The notes under the pieces were generated by a model that was not told where the DNA came from, made no database searches, and saw only the letters and a list, made by a program, of their open reading frames with translations. Shown here one piece after another: positions 5,626 to 46,014 of a DNA stretch of 64,000 nt; position 1 is the stretch's first letter, and each line of letters opens with the position of its first letter. This stretch comes from Malacoraja senta (taxonomy: Eukaryota): assembly GCA_038087875.1 (NCBI GenBank), contig CM075988.1, forward strand, positions 19,222,001-19,286,000. The letters run 5' to 3'. The translations under genes were made by a program, and so were the position numbers.

Positions 5626-6529
5626 TCTGATTGAAAGGTTCGGACTGTCTATGCATGGTCCTTGTTTGGGTTGCAAGCAGACCAGAAGATACTGTGCGAT
5701 CTGCTTCCTGCTGTGATGGTGGTCCCAGTCATTGTAGCAGAGTCCCTGTTGACCAAGAGCCTGATGGTTCTCCAGCGATGCTGCCTGACCCACTGAGAAC
5801 TCCAGCACCTTGTGTCTATCCCTGTTGAACATCTTGGGCCTTCACTGACCCCCCCCCCCCCCCCCCCATTTGTAAGACCAAAATTGTCCTAATAGACAGA
5901 TGAATGGTATTGATTGAGTAGGCAGAGAGAAAATGTTTCCATTTCATTCCTCATTCCAATCAATATTAATTTTGGCTTTATATGAAATCACTTTCATTAT
6001 ATGGGAAGAAAATAAATGACATTAAAAATATCTTTAATTACATCAGTACAGGAAAATTTTGTATTCTACAGGAGATAAAATCAGAGTTATTGAAGCAAAA
6101 AATAACATGTTTACAATTTAACTTCTGTGCCACAGACATTAAAACTAAAGTTCATTAGAAACTGCAGCAATTTCTGCCTCCAATTGTGCATTTAATCTTG
6201 ACTTCATTTATAAGAAAGTTTAATTAGAAAGTACTGTTAAAGTCTCATTTTTATGCAGCCTCAAGGGAGAATGATTTGGGACCACATAACTAATAGGCAC
6301 TTCATCCTCATTCAGTGCACTGATTAGAACAGGGACAGATTCAGACACTCAATTCAAGGGAGAAAAATAACTTTGTTTGCAAATTCTCTTTGCTTGTGAA
6401 ATGGGGAAAGAGATTTTCTTCCTCCATGTCAGAGCAACCTGCTGCACAAAGTCTTCTGCCATTAACACCAGCACCTGGAATTGCACCAGGATAGAAGAGT
6501 GAAAAGCCAGGATATCTCCCGATCGGTTG

Positions 6530-7030
6530 GATGTTGAGATTGGAAAGGTTCAGAGGGATATGGGCCAAGCACAAGCAAATTGGACTGGCTTGGATGGGGC
6601 ATTGAGAGTCATAGAGTCATACAGCGTGGAAACTGGCCCTTCGGCCCAACTTGCCCATGCCGACCAACATGTCACATCCACACCAGTCCCACCTGCCTGC
6701 CTTTGGCCCATATGCTTCCAAACCTGGCCTATCCATGTACCTGTCTAATTGTTTCTTAAACATTGCAATAGTCCCTGTCTCAACTACCTCCTCTGGAAGC
6801 TCGTTCCATGCAACCGCCACCCTTGTTTGGGGGTAGACACAAAATGCTGGAGTAACTCAGCGGGACAGGCAGCATCTCTGGAGCATTCCTTCTCTCCAGA
6901 GTTACTCCAGCTTTTTGTGTCTATCTTTGGTTTAAACCAGCATCTGCAGTTCCTTCCTACTCCCTTGTTTTGGGGGGGGGGGGGCAGCTTGGTCATCATG
7001 GACAAGTCGGGCTGAGGGGCCTGTTTACAT
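6530..7030. mobile_element. Cluster of CR1 3' ends plus a Penelope-like fold-back insertion (about 6834-6961)
   Basis: ORF 6617-6820(-) WNELPEEVVETGTIAMFKKQLDRYM is a CR1 C-terminus; fold-back flanked by ccttgttt(t)ggggg direct repeats. Confidence 0.75.
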
Positions 7031-7179
7031 GTTGTATGTCTATTTTACCGTAAATGATGATGTGTTTATATATTTTTCCATTCTTGGTCACTTGTAATGT
7101 GTGAAACTAGAGGCCAGTATTCGTCCATGTCAATAATGGTGGCTGGCATTTCACTCTGGGTAATGGAAGATAACACACC

Positions 7180-7583
7180 AATAACACGAGATAAATAACC
7201 AAAAATACAATCAATTAATAACCGTAATAATAGGAAACCACGATAGTGTAAAAACAGAAGTCCATAGTGCGACCAAAGACACAGTCCATAGGAGATCATA
7301 GTTGATGAGGTTAGTGTTGTGCAGTGTCCAAGAGCCTGATGGCTGGGAAGAAGCTGTTCCTGAAACTGGGGATCATGGTTTTCAGGCTCCTTGACATTCC
7401 TCCTAATGGTAGCAGTGAGATGAGAGCATGGCCAAGGTGGCATGAGACTGATGATATTGGCCGACTTTTTGAGGCAGCACCTCCTGTAGATCCCTTTGAT
7501 GGTGGGGAGGTCAGTACCTTTGATGGACCTGACCCATCTACCATTCTTTGTTGTCTCCCTCGATCCTGGGCATTCGAGTTGCT
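7180..7583 (-). mobile_element. Rex1-clade LINE 3' fragment (degenerate)
   Basis: Minus-strand frames give GTDLPTIKGIYRRCCLKKSANII and GHALISLLPLG...SFRNSFFPAIRLL, typical of the Rex1 C-terminus. Confidence 0.75.
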
Positions 7584-7722
7584 TCTTCTTCTTGTGTACG
7601 GCGTGCACAGCCCAAAGTTGTAGGACAACTTGTTCTATTTGATCTTATTTGATTGTGCACACCGGGTTGATTGCATTTGTCGAAACAGGGCAGAACACGT
7701 GAAGGTTGCAATCTCCCACCCC
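7584..7722 (-). mobile_element. 139-bp non-autonomous retroelement: 5' HDV-like ribozyme, 3' stem-loop, (AAG)n tail
   Basis: 12-bp TSD attcgagttgct (7572-7583) / atttgagttgct (7723-7734); minus strand starts GGGGUGG and ends ...GUACACAAGAAGAAGA. Confidence 0.85.
7669..7722 (-). ncRNA. Minimal HDV/CPEB3-like ribozyme (predicted fold)
   Basis: GGGGUGG-GA-GAUUGCA-ACC-UUCACGU-GUU-CUGCCCU-GUUUCGA-CAAA-UGCAAUC: P1 7 bp with G1-U wobble, P2 perfect 7 bp, L3 UUCACGU, C in J4/2; one mismatch in P3. Confidence 0.8.
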
Positions 7723-8726
7723 ATTTGAGTTGCTGAGGGAGTTGATGTTAATCATGAAAACCAATAATTTTGGACGAGCAGGTCAATCAGCCTCTCAAGC
7801 CTCGTCTACCACTCCATGAGAATTTCACAACAAGCTGGAGACTTTGAAATGATTTGATTTGATTTGACTGGATAGCACGCAAACAAAAACGTTTCATTGT
7901 AAATCGGTACATGTCACAATATGAAACCAATACCCAGATTCCAATATATGACAATAAACTATGTGAATCTGAATATAAATGTGAATCTTAACCTGAATCA
8001 GGCAGAGAATCATTGAGTCACACAGCAGGGAAGTAGGCCCTTCGGTCCAATTCGTCCATGCTGACCAAGATGACCTATCCAAGCATCACCTTGAGTGCAA
8101 CGTGGGATGGGTAGCAAACACCAAGTCTGTTCCACTTCCCGTGAATTATTAACACAGAACGCATGGACAGGGTCAGGAGTAGAACCTTACACAAGGAGGG
8201 AGAAGCACTGATGGGAAATGGCATGCTTACTAGTCAGTTGGCAACATCTCGAGCTTCCTTCAGTATCACTGATTTGCCACAGCTTTCATGCCTGAGGTTT
8301 GTAAACAGAATGAGCTTTGTAAGCAGATGGAGCTGAAGCCATTTGTTATAAAGACTAATGAGAATCAAGGCCCAAAAATTGCTGAACATCTATTCTTGCT
8401 CCCAGTCTTCACCACGTCACAAACTATCGGAGCTGATGTGCTTCACCAGATGTTCCGTTCCCCTCTTGGAGATCCCGCGGAGAACATGGAGGAAAGGTAT
8501 CTGCAGCCTTCAGGTGACGTCTGTGCACAACTAAGGCAGATGGGCAGGACAAAGATGCTTGCAGGCGATCAGATCTTGCAAGCGGGAGGAGAAACACAAC
8601 AAACAAAATGTCACGCCGCCAAACTGGCAGGAAAATGATGCACAAGATGTCATCCATTCCTCAAAAACTGAACAATGCACAACACTAAACTATGAACTAA
8701 GGAATGTGTAGGAAGGAACTGCAGAT

Positions 8727-8819
8727 CTGAAGAAGGGTTTCGGCCCGAAACGTTGCCTATTTCCTTTGCTCCATAGATGCTGCTGCACCCGCTGAGTTTC
8801 TCCAGCACTTTTGTCTACC
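8727..8819 (+). mobile_element. Short Penelope-like terminal repeat with hammerhead core, inserted into an oppositely oriented related repeat (about 8705-8910)
   Basis: Starts CTGAAGA-agggtttcggccc-GAAACGTT; 14-bp TSD aaggaactgcagat at 8713-8726 and 8820-8833. Confidence 0.8.
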
Positions 8820-45568: not shown

Positions 45569-45865
45569 CACATAATCACTAATTGGATATGATTTAGTTG
45601 ATTCGGAAGTTCAGTAAAAAACAGGAGTAAGGAAATTGACACATTCTCCTGTGATTATACATAAAACTGAAGGATGTGTTAACATCAGAAACCTTTCAAT
45701 TATATCCCACTGTTCTCTCCAGAGCTGGTTGTTGGTGTACATTAAGAACAATAAATAAATGTCATTTAACACCCATGTTCATACTTCTTCTTATCGAGTC
45801 CACATCACAAGATTAGAAATTGTTCAGCCAGAGCTGAACACATTATCTCGGCATCTGCATACAAT

Positions 45866-45964
45866 TGCTTCTTGCGCTTCTTGTGGTTCTTGTGCTTCTT
45901 GTGCGTAGTGGTGGAACGATTGGTGGAAACAGGGCCGCGACGTGAACGCTCTTTCCTTGACCCT
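45866..45964 (-). mobile_element. About 100-bp element: 5' HDV-like ribozyme plus (CACAAGAAG)n-type tail
   Basis: Ribozyme fold followed by accactacg-cacaagaag-cacaagaac-cacaagaag-cgcaagaag; no convincing TSD. Confidence 0.7.
45913..45964 (-). ncRNA. Minimal HDV/CPEB3-like ribozyme (predicted fold)
   Basis: AGGGUC-AA-GGAAAGA-GCG-UUCACGU-CGC-GGCCCU-GUUUCCA-CCAA-UCGUUCC: P1 6 bp, P2 6/7 bp, P3 perfect, same L3 as the 7669-7722 copy. Confidence 0.75.
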
Positions 45965-46014
45965 ACGTTCATACTAAGGTAGAACAACTTCCACCACCAT
46001 GGGAGTGGGGCAAT

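What the first reader, a model, noticed from the sequence alone, without database searches (positions are those of the whole stretch)
7584..7722. 139-bp retroelement whose 5' end is a minimal HDV/CPEB3-like ribozyme
Seen: the minus strand reads GGGGUGG GA GAUUGCA ACC UUCACGU GUU CUGCCCU GUUUCGA CAAA UGCAAUC. This gives the HDV double-pseudoknot order P1-P2-P3-L3-P3'-P1'-(very short P4)-J4/2-P2', with a G1-U wobble, a perfect 7-bp P2 and a C at the catalytic position. A 12-bp TSD (7572-7583 / 7723-7734, one mismatch) starts immediately beyond G1 at 7722, so the element's 5' end coincides with the predicted cleavage site. Known: HDV-like ribozymes process the 5' ends of R2, L1Tc/ingi and some RTE elements. 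Inference: this is a SINE-like family with no pol III promoter that cuts itself out of read-through transcripts. I am not aware of such a family being described in cartilaginous fish, but cannot search. This copy has a P3 mismatch and may be inactive.
Basis: partly seen in the sequence, partly recalled or inferred. Interest (0 to 1): 0.9.

Follow-up and report, generated by a model that had tools for sequence, protein, structure and literature searches.

The report
Short retroelement starting with HDV-like ribozyme
This 139-base stretch is one slightly damaged copy of a very abundant short mobile element whose first 54 bases have the shape of a small self-cutting RNA of the hepatitis-delta/CPEB3 type, which most likely trims the element's RNA to its exact start before it is copied back into the genome.

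Summary
Window 7722->7584 (minus strand) is a 139-nt element with a (AAG)n tail and a 12-bp target-site duplication flush with G1. At least 8,347 copies carry its 35-nt ribozyme core at 3 mismatches or fewer. All 30 fetched copies have unrelated sequence just upstream of G1.

The first 54 nt fit the HDV double pseudoknot without P4. Intact copies hit Rfam CPEB3_ribozyme in the correct register, but below its cut-off (20.7 bits against 35).

The same genome holds sister families with a full P4 that pass the cut-off: 39 of 60 scored loci, best 64.2 bits. One is a ~3.15-kb endonuclease/RT LINE that also ends in (AAG)n. Across families P1, P2, P3 and P4 covary while L3, G37-U38 and the J4/2 C stay fixed (90.6% of cells paired, against 38-47% for slid controls).

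The window copy carries a private P3 mutation and is probably dead.

- Self-cleavage is not shown. PolyA RNA reads gave no pile-up of starts at G1.
- No LINE shares the element's 3' sequence.
- Ribozyme-headed non-LTR elements are already known, so this is a new variant of a known kind.

The parts
7584..7722 (-). One copy of the 139-nt non-autonomous retroelement, here called SINE-A. It is about 4-5% diverged from the family majority.
   Evidence: Forty scored genome matches are 95-100% identical, and nearly all cover positions 1-139.
7669..7722 (-). Minimal, P4-less HDV/CPEB3-like ribozyme domain, element positions 1-54.
- P1: 7716-7722 with 7687-7693
- J1/2: 7714-7715
- P2: 7707-7713 with 7669-7675
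- P3: 7704-7706 with 7694-7696
- L3: 7697-7703
- G37-U38: 7685-7686
- 5-nt linker in place of P4: 7680-7684
- J4/2 (CAAA, with the putative catalytic C at 7679): 7676-7679
   Evidence: Sequence. Register of the Rfam hits on intact copies. Model R1, built from sister families only, hits intact copies exactly at positions 1-54 with 18.8-23.7 bits. Covariation.
7695..7695 (-). Private G-to-T change at element position 28. It breaks the middle pair of P3 (C18-G28).
   Evidence: 28 of 30 copies have G; 110 of 113 and 143 of 150 RNA reads, and nearly all the contig depth, carry the family letter.
7615..7631 (-). 7-bp inverted repeat AAGTTGT / ACAACTT with a 3-nt loop, element positions 92-108. It may be a 3' stem-loop for the reverse transcriptase; that is inference.
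   Evidence: Read from the sequence and conserved in 30 copies. Function not tested.
7584..7593 (-). (AAG)n microsatellite tail.
   Evidence: the tail length varies between copies from (AAG)2 to (AAG)7.
7723..7734 (.). Target-site duplication, 5' copy.
7572..7583 (.). Target-site duplication, 3' copy, with one mismatch.
   Evidence: A script found duplications of 10-15 bp flush with G1 in 24 of 30 copies.

Best explanation
SINE-A is a young, high-copy, non-autonomous non-LTR retroelement. It has three modules: a 54-nt 5' ribozyme, a variable middle, and a 3' hairpin followed by a (AAG)n tail.

The 5' module is a minimal HDV-like ribozyme of the CPEB3 sequence type, with P1, P2, P3, L3 and J4/2 but only a 5-nt linker where P4 would be.

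Proposed mechanism (inferred):
1. A source copy is transcribed as part of a longer host or read-through RNA.
2. The ribozyme cleaves immediately 5' of G1. The RNA template therefore begins exactly at the element's first base.
3. An endonuclease/RT LINE with the same kind of head and tail reverse-transcribes it by target-primed reverse transcription. This produces the tail and the 10-15-bp duplications. The ~3.15-kb LINE-A found in this genome is a candidate.

Shown here: family structure, exact 5' ends, duplications, tail, fold covariation, homology to sister ribozymes that pass Rfam's cut-off, and the existence of a ribozyme-headed LINE with a (AAG)n tail.

Inferred: catalysis, read-through transcription of source copies, and the identity of the mobilising LINE.

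The window copy itself is probably inactive because of the P3 mismatch, G45A in J4/2, and a third wobble in P1.
For: 1. Family and ends.
- The ribozyme core has 8,347 matches at 3 mismatches or fewer.
- All 30 of 30 copies have unrelated upstream flanks, 28 of 30 start with GGGG, and 24 of 30 have script-detected duplications flush with G1.
- Of 100 listed hits out of 2,656 anchored only on positions 8-27, I counted by eye 72 with exact GGGGTGG at positions 1-7. A further 24 differ by one base or a G-run length, and 4 differ at 3 or more bases. The upstream 8-mers are unrelated except for 5 duplicate pairs.
- 5'-truncated copies with duplications exist (L061, L067, L072), as expected for target-primed reverse transcription.

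2. Ribozyme.
- Rfam CPEB3_ribozyme scores 20.7 bits, E=0.0018, with the cleavage-site column on G1. HDV-F-prausnitzii scores 14.4 bits over positions 1-54.
- The minimum-energy fold of intact copy L021 is exactly P1 plus P3, with both P2 strands left free.
- Model R1 was built only from four sister families with a full P4. It finds 8 of 8 tested SINE-A loci exactly at the ribozyme: 7 at 18.8-23.7 bits (E 0.003-0.035 in 89 kb) and L079 at 13.5 bits.

3. Sister families.
- RF00622 finds 39 of 60 scored loci above its cut-off, best 64.2 bits. It passes the cut-off in 0 of 14 control genomes.
- These loci also begin at the model's cleavage position, with unrelated upstream flanks.
- On the 21-sequence alignment A1, 90.6% of cells pair, against 38-47% when partners are slid. 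Changes on both sides occur in 18 of 25 pairs, including 6 of 7 in the pseudoknot helix P2. The covariation score is 0.499 against 0.108 or less, reached by 0 of 500 shuffles.
- L3 (TTCNCNT), G37-T38 and A46 are invariant; the J4/2 C and A47 are at least 90% conserved.

4. Modularity. Older SINE-A subfamilies keep the ribozyme and the tail but have different middles. They carry U5-A32 in place of U5.G32.

5. Candidate partner. L101 has the ribozyme, then a 940-aa ORF with Exo_endo_phos and RVT_1 domains, then a (AAG)n tail and a duplication.

6. P4-less HDV-like ribozymes are a recognised class (PMC10879173, passage seen).
Against: - No cleavage assay was run.
- SINE-A scores below Rfam's gathering score (20.7 against 35).
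- The window copy is not significant by either model.
- The energy of the nested fold is no better than that of shuffled sequences (z = +0.92 for L021, +0.32 for the window copy). The pseudoknot is not modelled there.
- PolyA RNA raw reads came from a coded related organism. Of 445 reads laid, 372 were only 90-95% alike, and about 6% of the run was read. They show no place where molecules begin at G1. At positions 7722 and 7723, 67 and 62 reads run on into unrelated flanks. So many copies are transcribed inside longer RNAs, uncleaved or antisense.
- No autonomous element shares SINE-A's ribozyme helices (38 pattern hits, all SINE variants or broken copies).
- None shares its last 22-29 nt either (64 and 48 hits, all SINE variants, truncated copies or copies with insertions).
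- The only SINE-A/LINE-A similarity outside the core is a 13-nt tail match, E=1.4.
- Covariation is between families, so it reflects few independent events. Within the young SINE-A family only one-sided changes were seen.
Confidence: 0.75

Rival explanations
1. The 5' module is a ribozyme relic that no longer cleaves, because the loss of P4 killed it. It is kept for another role, such as binding the LINE protein or acting as an internal promoter at the DNA level. The Pr77/L1TcRz module of L1Tc and NARTc works as both promoter and ribozyme.
For: P4 is missing. The Rfam score is sub-threshold. RNA reads show no pile-up of starts at G1. A dual promoter/ribozyme module is documented for L1Tc and NARTc (PMC3383444, abstract seen).
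Against: All three retained helices and the catalytic-core letters are kept in more than 8,000 young copies and across subfamilies. A second P4-less family, SINE-B, keeps them independently. P4-less HDV-like ribozymes are a recognised class. Protein binding alone would not explain why the J4/2 C and the base-of-P1 G.U are kept.
Confidence: 0.12
2. SINE-A is an ordinary pol III SINE. Its exact 5' end is the transcription start set by an internal A/B-box promoter, and the ribozyme likeness is secondary.
For: A fixed transcription start would also give ends flush with the duplication. By eye there are weak box-like strings (TGGGAGATTGC at positions 5-15, GTTTCGACGAA at 37-47) when compared with consensus boxes that I recall from memory. 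The element has no run of four T.
Against: ARAGORN finds no tRNA in three loci. Rfam at E<=10 finds no tRNA, 5S or 7SL in the copy; the only relevant hits are two HDV-family models. The same 5' module, in the same position, heads a 3.15-kb protein-coding LINE, which is not a pol III unit. Helices covary as RNA pairs, which a DNA promoter would not require.
Confidence: 0.08
3. The resemblance is chance: a 5'-truncated LINE tail that happens to draw an HDV-like picture.
For: The window copy alone is not significant.
Against: It is a discrete 139-nt unit present in thousands of copies with the same start. Intact copies are found by two independent covariance models in the exact register.
Confidence: 0.02

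Closest known systems
R2 SIDEs (short internally deleted elements of R2)
   Same: Non-autonomous and without an ORF. They keep a 5' HDV-like ribozyme that sets the exact 5' end, plus the 3' end needed by the LINE's reverse transcriptase. Sources: PMC3414825, abstract; PMC6765202, passage.
   Different: SIDEs are recent internal deletions of R2 and insert site-specifically in 28S rDNA. SINE-A is dispersed with ordinary duplications. It shares no body sequence with the candidate LINE. Its ribozyme lacks P4.
NARTc / L1Tc of Trypanosoma cruzi (L1TcRz / Pr77)
   Same: A dispersed LINE and its non-autonomous partner share an HDV-like ribozyme in the first bases of the RNA (PMC3383444 and PMC3185411, abstracts).
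   Different: The 77-nt module of a trypanosomatid also acts as a promoter. Here the module is 54 nt, of the CPEB3 sequence type, in an animal genome of 1.94 Gb. A promoter role was not tested.
HDV-like ribozymes of RTE and baggins retrotransposons (Ruminski et al. 2011)
   Same: Promoter-less endonuclease/RT LINEs processed at the 5' end by an HDV-like ribozyme. [quoted passage not shown]
   Different: I could not read the primary paper; PMC3308841 is not held. I therefore cannot say whether a P4-less SINE of this kind, or this host group, is covered there. Calling LINE-A 'RTE-like' is inference from its size, single ORF and microsatellite tail.
Mammalian CPEB3 ribozyme (Rfam RF00622)
   Same: L3 (UUCACGU), the CCCUGU stretch and the CGAA of J4/2 are the same as in the Rfam consensus printed. 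Sister families pass the family's gathering score.
   Different: CPEB3 is a single conserved intronic locus with a full P4. SINE-A is a multicopy mobile element with different P1, P2 and P3 letters and no P4, and it scores 20.7 bits against a cut-off of 35.
Minimal HDV-like ribozymes and theta ribozymes
   Same: They lack the P4 domain (PMC10879173, passage).
   Different: Those were found in metagenomes and gut phages, next to tRNAs. Here the minimal form sits at the 5' end of a eukaryotic retroelement.
Schistosoma SINE-like elements with hammerhead ribozymes
   Same: A short non-autonomous retroelement that carries a self-cleaving ribozyme (PMC6765202).
   Different: A different ribozyme class. 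Those elements have a pol III promoter and a tandem arrangement.

Membership tests
HDV-like (drz) self-cleaving ribozymes | Nested double pseudoknot: P1, P2 and P3 in the order P1-P2-P3-L3-P3'-P1'-(P4)-J4/2-P2' | tested here: met
   The order and pairings are read from the sequence. Across 21 sequences, cells paired are P1 89%, P2 94.6% and P3 90.5%. Changes on both sides occur in 3 of 7, 6 of 7 and 2 of 3 pairs respectively.
HDV-like (drz) self-cleaving ribozymes | P4 helix | tested here: not met
   SINE-A has 5 nt (UUCGA) between G37-U38 and J4/2. P4-less minimal forms are an accepted subclass, so this does not exclude membership.
HDV-like (drz) self-cleaving ribozymes | G1 at the cleavage site, forming a G.U wobble at the base of P1 | tested here: met
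   G1 and U36 are present in the window copy. G1 is present in 28 of 30 copies. The G.U pair is present in 13 of 20 comparable rows of A1; the others are mostly copies with altered 5' ends and the SINE-B rows that start with T.
HDV-like (drz) self-cleaving ribozymes | Catalytic cytosine in J4/2 | tested here: met
   C44 is present in 29 of 30 copies and conserved in at least 90% of A1 rows. Its catalytic role is inferred.
HDV-like (drz) self-cleaving ribozymes | Site-specific self-cleavage 5' of G1, giving a 5'-OH product | not testable with these tools
   There is only indirect support, namely that element 5' ends coincide with G1. RNA reads gave no positive signal.
Rfam RF00622 CPEB3_ribozyme | Score at or above the gathering cut-off of 35 bits | tested here: not met
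   SINE-A copy L021 scores 20.7 bits. The window copy has no hit at E<=10. Sister families score 43.7-64.2 bits.
SINE in the strict sense | 5' head derived from tRNA, 7SL or 5S, with an internal pol III promoter | tested here: not met
   ARAGORN finds 0 genes in L021, L025 and L117. No tRNA, 5S or 7SL model matches at E<=10. I therefore call it 'SINE-like'.
Non-LTR retroelement copied by target-primed reverse transcription | Target-site duplications, a 3' simple-repeat tail of variable length, and 5'-truncated copies | tested here: met
   Duplications in 24 of 30 copies and (AAG)2-7 tails. Truncated copies with duplications: L061, L067 and L072.
Internally deleted derivative of its LINE (SIDE-type) | 5' and 3' parts collinear with, and similar to, the parent LINE | tested here: not met
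   No significant similarity to LINE-A (L101) beyond the ribozyme core letters and a 13-nt tail match, E=1.4. No element with SINE-A's helices or 3' end attached to other sequence was found.

The most novel reading that the evidence does not exclude
This genome carries a living radiation of CPEB3-type ribozymes at the heads of retroelements. It includes one LINE, a further unclassified family (LINE3), and at least three short ORF-less families, two of them P4-less.

One family (FamC: L103, L105) matches the Rfam consensus of the mammalian CPEB3 ribozyme letter for letter through most of P1, P2, P3, L3, P4 and J4/2. A P2 pair changes on both sides.

The boldest reading not excluded is that the single-copy mammalian CPEB3 intron ribozyme is a domesticated head of this retroelement lineage. 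On that reading, P4-less 'minimal' HDV-like ribozymes arise naturally as streamlined 5'-processing modules of SINE-like parasites.
Probability: 0.4. Interest if true: 0.8.

Novelty: new variant of a known kind. Interest (0 to 1): 0.62.

Why it matters
Ribozyme-headed LINEs and their deleted derivatives are known. This element would add three things.

1. It would be a very abundant short element (more than 8,000 copies) that takes its exact 5' end from a 54-nt P4-less HDV-like ribozyme rather than from a pol III promoter.
2. It would give a eukaryotic genomic context and a function for 'minimal' HDV-like ribozymes. PMC10879173 says the origin and role of these are undetermined.
3. It shows a set of retroelement ribozymes that Rfam's 'mammalian CPEB3' model accepts above its cut-off. 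That makes the origin of the CPEB3 ribozyme testable by comparative genomics.

No held paper uses the phrase 'CPEB3-like ribozyme'. Three held papers contain both 'HDV-like ribozyme' and 'Chondrichthyes'. In PMC8256844 the term only describes a pooled fish sample (passages). I saw PMC5035012 and PMC8310214 only as title and abstract start, and those do not describe such an element. I could not search Dfam or Repbase, and I could not read Ruminski et al. 2011.

Tried and rejected
- Rfam scan of the window region at E<=10 gave no HDV/CPEB3 hit for the window copy. The only hits were a hairpin at 6831-6926 and noise.
- Blast of the element against the window found no second SINE-A copy in the 64 kb.
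- Pattern searches for a LINE with SINE-A's ribozyme, requiring non-SINE letters after P2', found only deletion variants and broken copies.
- Pattern searches for SINE-A's 3' end preceded by non-SINE letters found only truncated copies, older subfamilies and copies with transposon insertions. No partner was found this way.
- Blast of SINE-A against LINE-A found nothing significant.
- Nested-fold energies are not better than those of shuffles.
- ESM Atlas on the LINE-A ORF returned only generic endonuclease/RT clusters, commonest phylum Chordata. It gave no clade assignment.
- Sequencing runs: no RNA holder is listed. I laid one 2026 polyA RNA run of a coded related organism and three contig runs. 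There was no pile-up of starts at G1 and there were no informative joints. Contig runs cannot show ends.
- The region downstream of the FamC copy L103 has no ORF of 120 aa or more on its strand, so that copy is not a LINE.
- The search of earlier findings held nothing for this genome.
- Ruminski et al. 2011 is not held.
- I considered and dropped the idea that the copies with long inserts (L064, L069, L074, L089) were longer parent elements. They are SINE-A copies interrupted by elements with terminal inverted repeats and a TTA duplication.

Full report
**Observation**

It is 139 nt and begins GGGGTGG GA GATTGCA ACC TTCACGT GTT CTGCCCT GTTTCGA CAAA TGCAATC. It ends in AAGAAGAAGA.

It is flanked by AGCAACTCAAAT and AGCAACTCGAAT, which are 12 bp with one mismatch. 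The next base on both sides is also G, so the boundary is uncertain by one base.

- P1 is 7 bp, with three G.U pairs.
- P2 is 7 perfect bp.
- P3 has a C/U mismatch.

Taken alone, this copy is not recognisable by a covariance model. It gives no HDV or CPEB3 hit at E<=10 over 6500-8800.

**The family**

The window lies in an unnamed 1.94-Gb assembly. A search with the 139 nt gave 3,162 first-look candidates. The 40 that were scored are 95-100% identical, and nearly all cover positions 1-139.

The 35-nt ribozyme core has 4,192 + 4,155 = 8,347 matches at 3 mismatches or fewer, against 0 for the reversed control.

In the 30 fetched copies:
- The sequence upstream of G1 is different in all 30.
- 28 begin with GGGG.
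- A script found duplications of 10-15 bp ending exactly before G1 in 24 of 30.
- Tails vary from (AAG)2 to (AAG)7.

That query did not include upstream sequence, so the sample is not biased against 5' extension.

A second sample was anchored only on positions 8-27. It had 2,656 matches, of which the first 100 were listed. Counted by eye:
- 72 have exact GGGGTGG at positions 1-7.
- 24 differ by one base or by the length of a G run.
- 4 differ at three or more bases.
- The upstream 8-mers show nothing in common apart from five duplicated loci.

Copies truncated at the 5' end, with their own duplications, also exist: L061, L067 and L072. So this is a discrete unit spread by target-primed reverse transcription, not a truncated LINE tail.

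**State of the window copy**

Most of the family has G at position 28, giving P3 ACC/GGT. It has C at position 31. At position 45 it has G, or A by CpG decay, so J4/2 reads CGAA or CAAA.

Reads and contigs from other runs agree. At plus-strand 7695, 110 of 113 and 143 of 150 RNA reads carry the family letter.

The window copy therefore carries a private break in P3, a G45A change and a third wobble in P1. Its nearest relative, L002, shares the first two.

**Is the head a ribozyme?**

A CpG-intact natural copy (L021:1501-1554) hits Rfam CPEB3_ribozyme at 20.7 bits, E=0.0018. The cut-off is 35. The model's first ribozyme position lies on G1. HDV-F-prausnitzii hits at 14.4 bits over exactly positions 1-54.

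The score lost is mainly due to the missing P4. P2 is a pseudoknot that these models do not score as pairs.

The minimum-energy nested fold of L021 is exactly P1 plus P3, with both P2 strands free. Its energy is no better than that of shuffles, z = +0.92.

ARAGORN finds no tRNA. No tRNA, 5S or 7SL model appears at E<=10.

**Sister families**

Searching the whole genome with RF00622 gave 60 scored matches out of roughly 102,000 first-look candidates. Of these, 39 are over the gathering score, the best at 64.2 bits. None of 14 control genomes passes the cut-off.

The fetched hits fall into several families:

- **LINE-A.** GGGGATC AA GGTAGAA GCG TTCACGT CGC GATCCCT GT, then an 8-bp P4, CGAA and TTCTACC, followed by an ORF.
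- **LINE3.** A related family with a longer P4 and CTAA in J4/2.
- **FamC.** It aligns to the Rfam consensus through most of P1, P2, P3, L3, P4 and J4/2.
- **FamD.**
- **SINE-B.** A second P4-less short element of about 180 nt with a (AAG)n tail and duplications.

In the LINE-A, LINE3 and SINE-B copies whose 5' end is intact, the unrelated flank starts at the model's cleavage position; several other fetched copies, including all three FamD rows of A1 (L104 is shifted by one column), have altered or truncated 5' ends.

**Covariation**

I aligned 21 sequences (alignment A1): six SINE-A including the window copy, three SINE-B, four LINE-A, two LINE3, three FamC and three FamD.

I left out copies that lacked several 5' bases (L105, L106, L108, L116, L118, L121), near-duplicates, and L113, whose P3/L3 region is disrupted. 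One row, L104, is shifted by one column in P1.

With P1, P2 (as a pseudoknot), P3 and P4 specified:
- 90.6% of 449 cells form standard pairs, against 38-47% when partners are slid by 1-3 columns.
- 18 of 25 pairs have changes on both sides: P1 3 of 7, P2 6 of 7, P3 2 of 3, P4 7 of 8.
- The covariation score is 0.499 against 0.108 or less for slid controls.
- 0 of 500 shuffles reach the observed value for cells paired, for cells with a change on both sides, or for the covariation score. For the number of pairs changed on both sides, 6 of 500 do. The count of further pair types (32) is below the shuffled mean (36.8), and 500 of 500 shuffles reach it.

L3 (TTCNCNT), G37-T38 and A46 are invariant; the J4/2 C and A47 are at least 90% conserved.

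These changes are between families, so they reflect few independent events. Within SINE-A I saw only one-sided changes: U5.G32 against U5-A32, and G6-C31 against G6.U31.

**Independent model test**

Model R1 was built from 13 sequences of LINE-A, LINE3, FamC and FamD only (A2). With filters off it finds every tested SINE-A copy:
- Seven copies are matched at or within three bases of positions 1-54, at 18.8-23.7 bits, E 0.003-0.035 in 89 kb; five of them span exactly 1-54.
- One older copy, L079, scores 13.5 bits; its match runs four bases past the 3' end.
- The window copy scores 11.4 bits, E=1.4, which is within noise.

**A candidate partner**

L101 holds one LINE-A copy of about 3.15 kb. It consists of the ribozyme, a 940-aa ORF, a tail reading ...ACGAAAAGAAGAAGAAG, and an 11-12-bp duplication.

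Pfam finds Exo_endo_phos, Exo_endo_phos_2 and RVT_1 in the ORF. This copy has an in-frame stop near the C-terminus, and the frame otherwise runs into the tail.

A single endonuclease/RT ORF, the small size and the microsatellite tail suggest an RTE-like element. That is inference, and the Atlas gave no clade.

SINE-A shares with it only the ribozyme core letters and the tail motif. The single match outside the core is 13 nt, E=1.4. Four pattern searches found no autonomous element carrying SINE-A's helices or its last 22-29 nt.

The partner assignment therefore rests on the shared (AAG)n tail and the shared class of head. It is not proven.

**RNA evidence**

No RNA holder is listed for the element, and that blank says nothing either way. 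I laid one polyA RNA run of a coded related organism, of which about 6% was read. It gave 445 reads, 372 of them only 90-95% alike.

- Both orientations are covered.
- No position qualifies as a place where many molecules begin.
- 67 and 62 reads continue past 7722 and 7723 into sequence with no consensus.

So many copies are transcribed within longer RNAs and are either uncleaved or antisense. This does not support in vivo cleavage. It is also a weak test, because most genomic copies are mutated, the library was polyA-selected, and strands are not separated in the loose-end table.

**Mechanism and rivals**

The best-supported account is that SINE-A is a promoter-less, ORF-less retroelement. 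Its source copies are transcribed within longer RNAs. They cut themselves free 5' of G1 with a minimal HDV-like ribozyme. They are then copied by a LINE that primes on (AAG)n.

| Explanation | Probability |
|---|---|
| Self-cleaving ribozyme that sets the 5' end | about 0.75 |
| Catalytically dead relic kept for protein binding or promoter function, as with Pr77 of L1Tc | 0.12 |
| Pol III SINE with an internal promoter | 0.08 |
| Chance resemblance | 0.02 |

The pol III rival is weakened by two points. The same module heads a protein-coding LINE, and its helices covary as RNA.

**Comparison with what is known**

The review PMC6765202 (passages) describes HDV-like ribozymes in R2, L1Tc, baggins and RTE elements. 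It describes SIDEs as non-autonomous R2 derivatives. [quoted passage not shown] NARTc shares L1Tc's ribozyme (abstracts).

PMC10879173 (passage) says minimal HDV-like ribozymes lack P4 and that their origin and function are undetermined.

The kind of element is therefore known. What differs here:
- the P4-less head on a 139-nt dispersed element with more than 8,000 copies;
- no collinearity with a parent LINE;
- a CPEB3-type core.

No held paper uses 'CPEB3-like ribozyme'. Three held papers contain both 'HDV-like ribozyme' and 'Chondrichthyes'. In PMC8256844 the term refers only to a pooled fish sample (passages). The other two, PMC5035012 and PMC8310214, I saw only as title and abstract start. 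I could not read Ruminski et al. 2011 or search Dfam or Repbase. I did not test which animal group the genome belongs to.

**Verdict**

- It is a new variant of a known kind.
- The window copy is a dead member of the family.
- The wider point is that the genome holds many retroelement ribozymes that Rfam's mammalian CPEB3 model accepts.

Noticed in passing
window 45784-45965 (minus strand); duplications at 45967-45973 and 45777-45783: A copy of a second short element (SINE-B, about 180 nt) with its own P4-less CPEB3-type ribozyme, a (AAG)n tail and a TATGAAC duplication. Model R1 scores it 36.1 bits, E=6e-6.
   Followed up: partly
G000 genome-wide; loci L091-L121: Rfam's 'mammalian CPEB3 ribozyme' model passes its cut-off at 39 of 60 scored loci (best 64.2 bits), out of roughly 102,000 rough candidates. 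These fall into at least five retroelement families. FamC (L103, L105) matches the Rfam consensus through P1, P2, P3, L3, P4 and J4/2, with one P2 pair changed on both sides.
   Followed up: partly
L103 / L122 (G000:C3:83735300-83740778): The FamC copy L103 is itself a short unit of about 270 nt with an A-rich tail and an ATAGTTGT duplication. There is no ORF of 120 aa or more downstream on its strand, so FamC is also non-autonomous, at least in this copy.
   Followed up: partly
L064, L066, L069, L074, L075, L089, L065 (about 1090-1545 in the oriented loci): SINE-A copies are repeatedly interrupted at the same site, CAACT|TTA|GGC, by elements with terminal inverted repeats AGGGCCTGTCCCAC and a TTA duplication. 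The inserts have several different bodies and lie in both orientations. At least 14 of the 64 hits are of this kind. This looks like a Harbinger-type insertion hot spot inside the SINE.
   Followed up: partly
window 6831-6926: A near-perfect palindromic hairpin hits mir-1756 on both strands at 34.4 and 32.6 bits, far below the cut-off of 100. A similar hairpin repeat is inserted in SINE-A copy L087. It is probably a hairpin-forming repeat, not a microRNA gene.
   Followed up: no
L109, L111, L115, L117, L119, L120: SINE-B copies begin with T (once with A) at the model's position 1, where HDV-like ribozymes have G. The duplications still end just before that base. It is unexplained whether this ribozyme tolerates U1 or whether the base is added during integration.
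   Followed up: no
L101 141-3203: The LINE-A reading frame continues into the (AAG)n tail, which reads as lysines, leaving almost no 3' untranslated region. This copy has one in-frame stop at 2961-2963.
   Followed up: no
L037, L043-L047, L049-L052, L054, L055, L057-L059: A 122-nt SINE-A subfamily lacks 17 nt between two CAATC repeats just after P2'. The ribozyme and tail are intact.
   Followed up: no
L081-L085 (G000:C1:229.13-229.23 Mb): The same older SINE-A copy, with identical flanks, recurs five times within 100 kb. This indicates a tandem or segmental duplication of the host region.
   Followed up: no
window, whole: The window contains 400 N.
   Followed up: no
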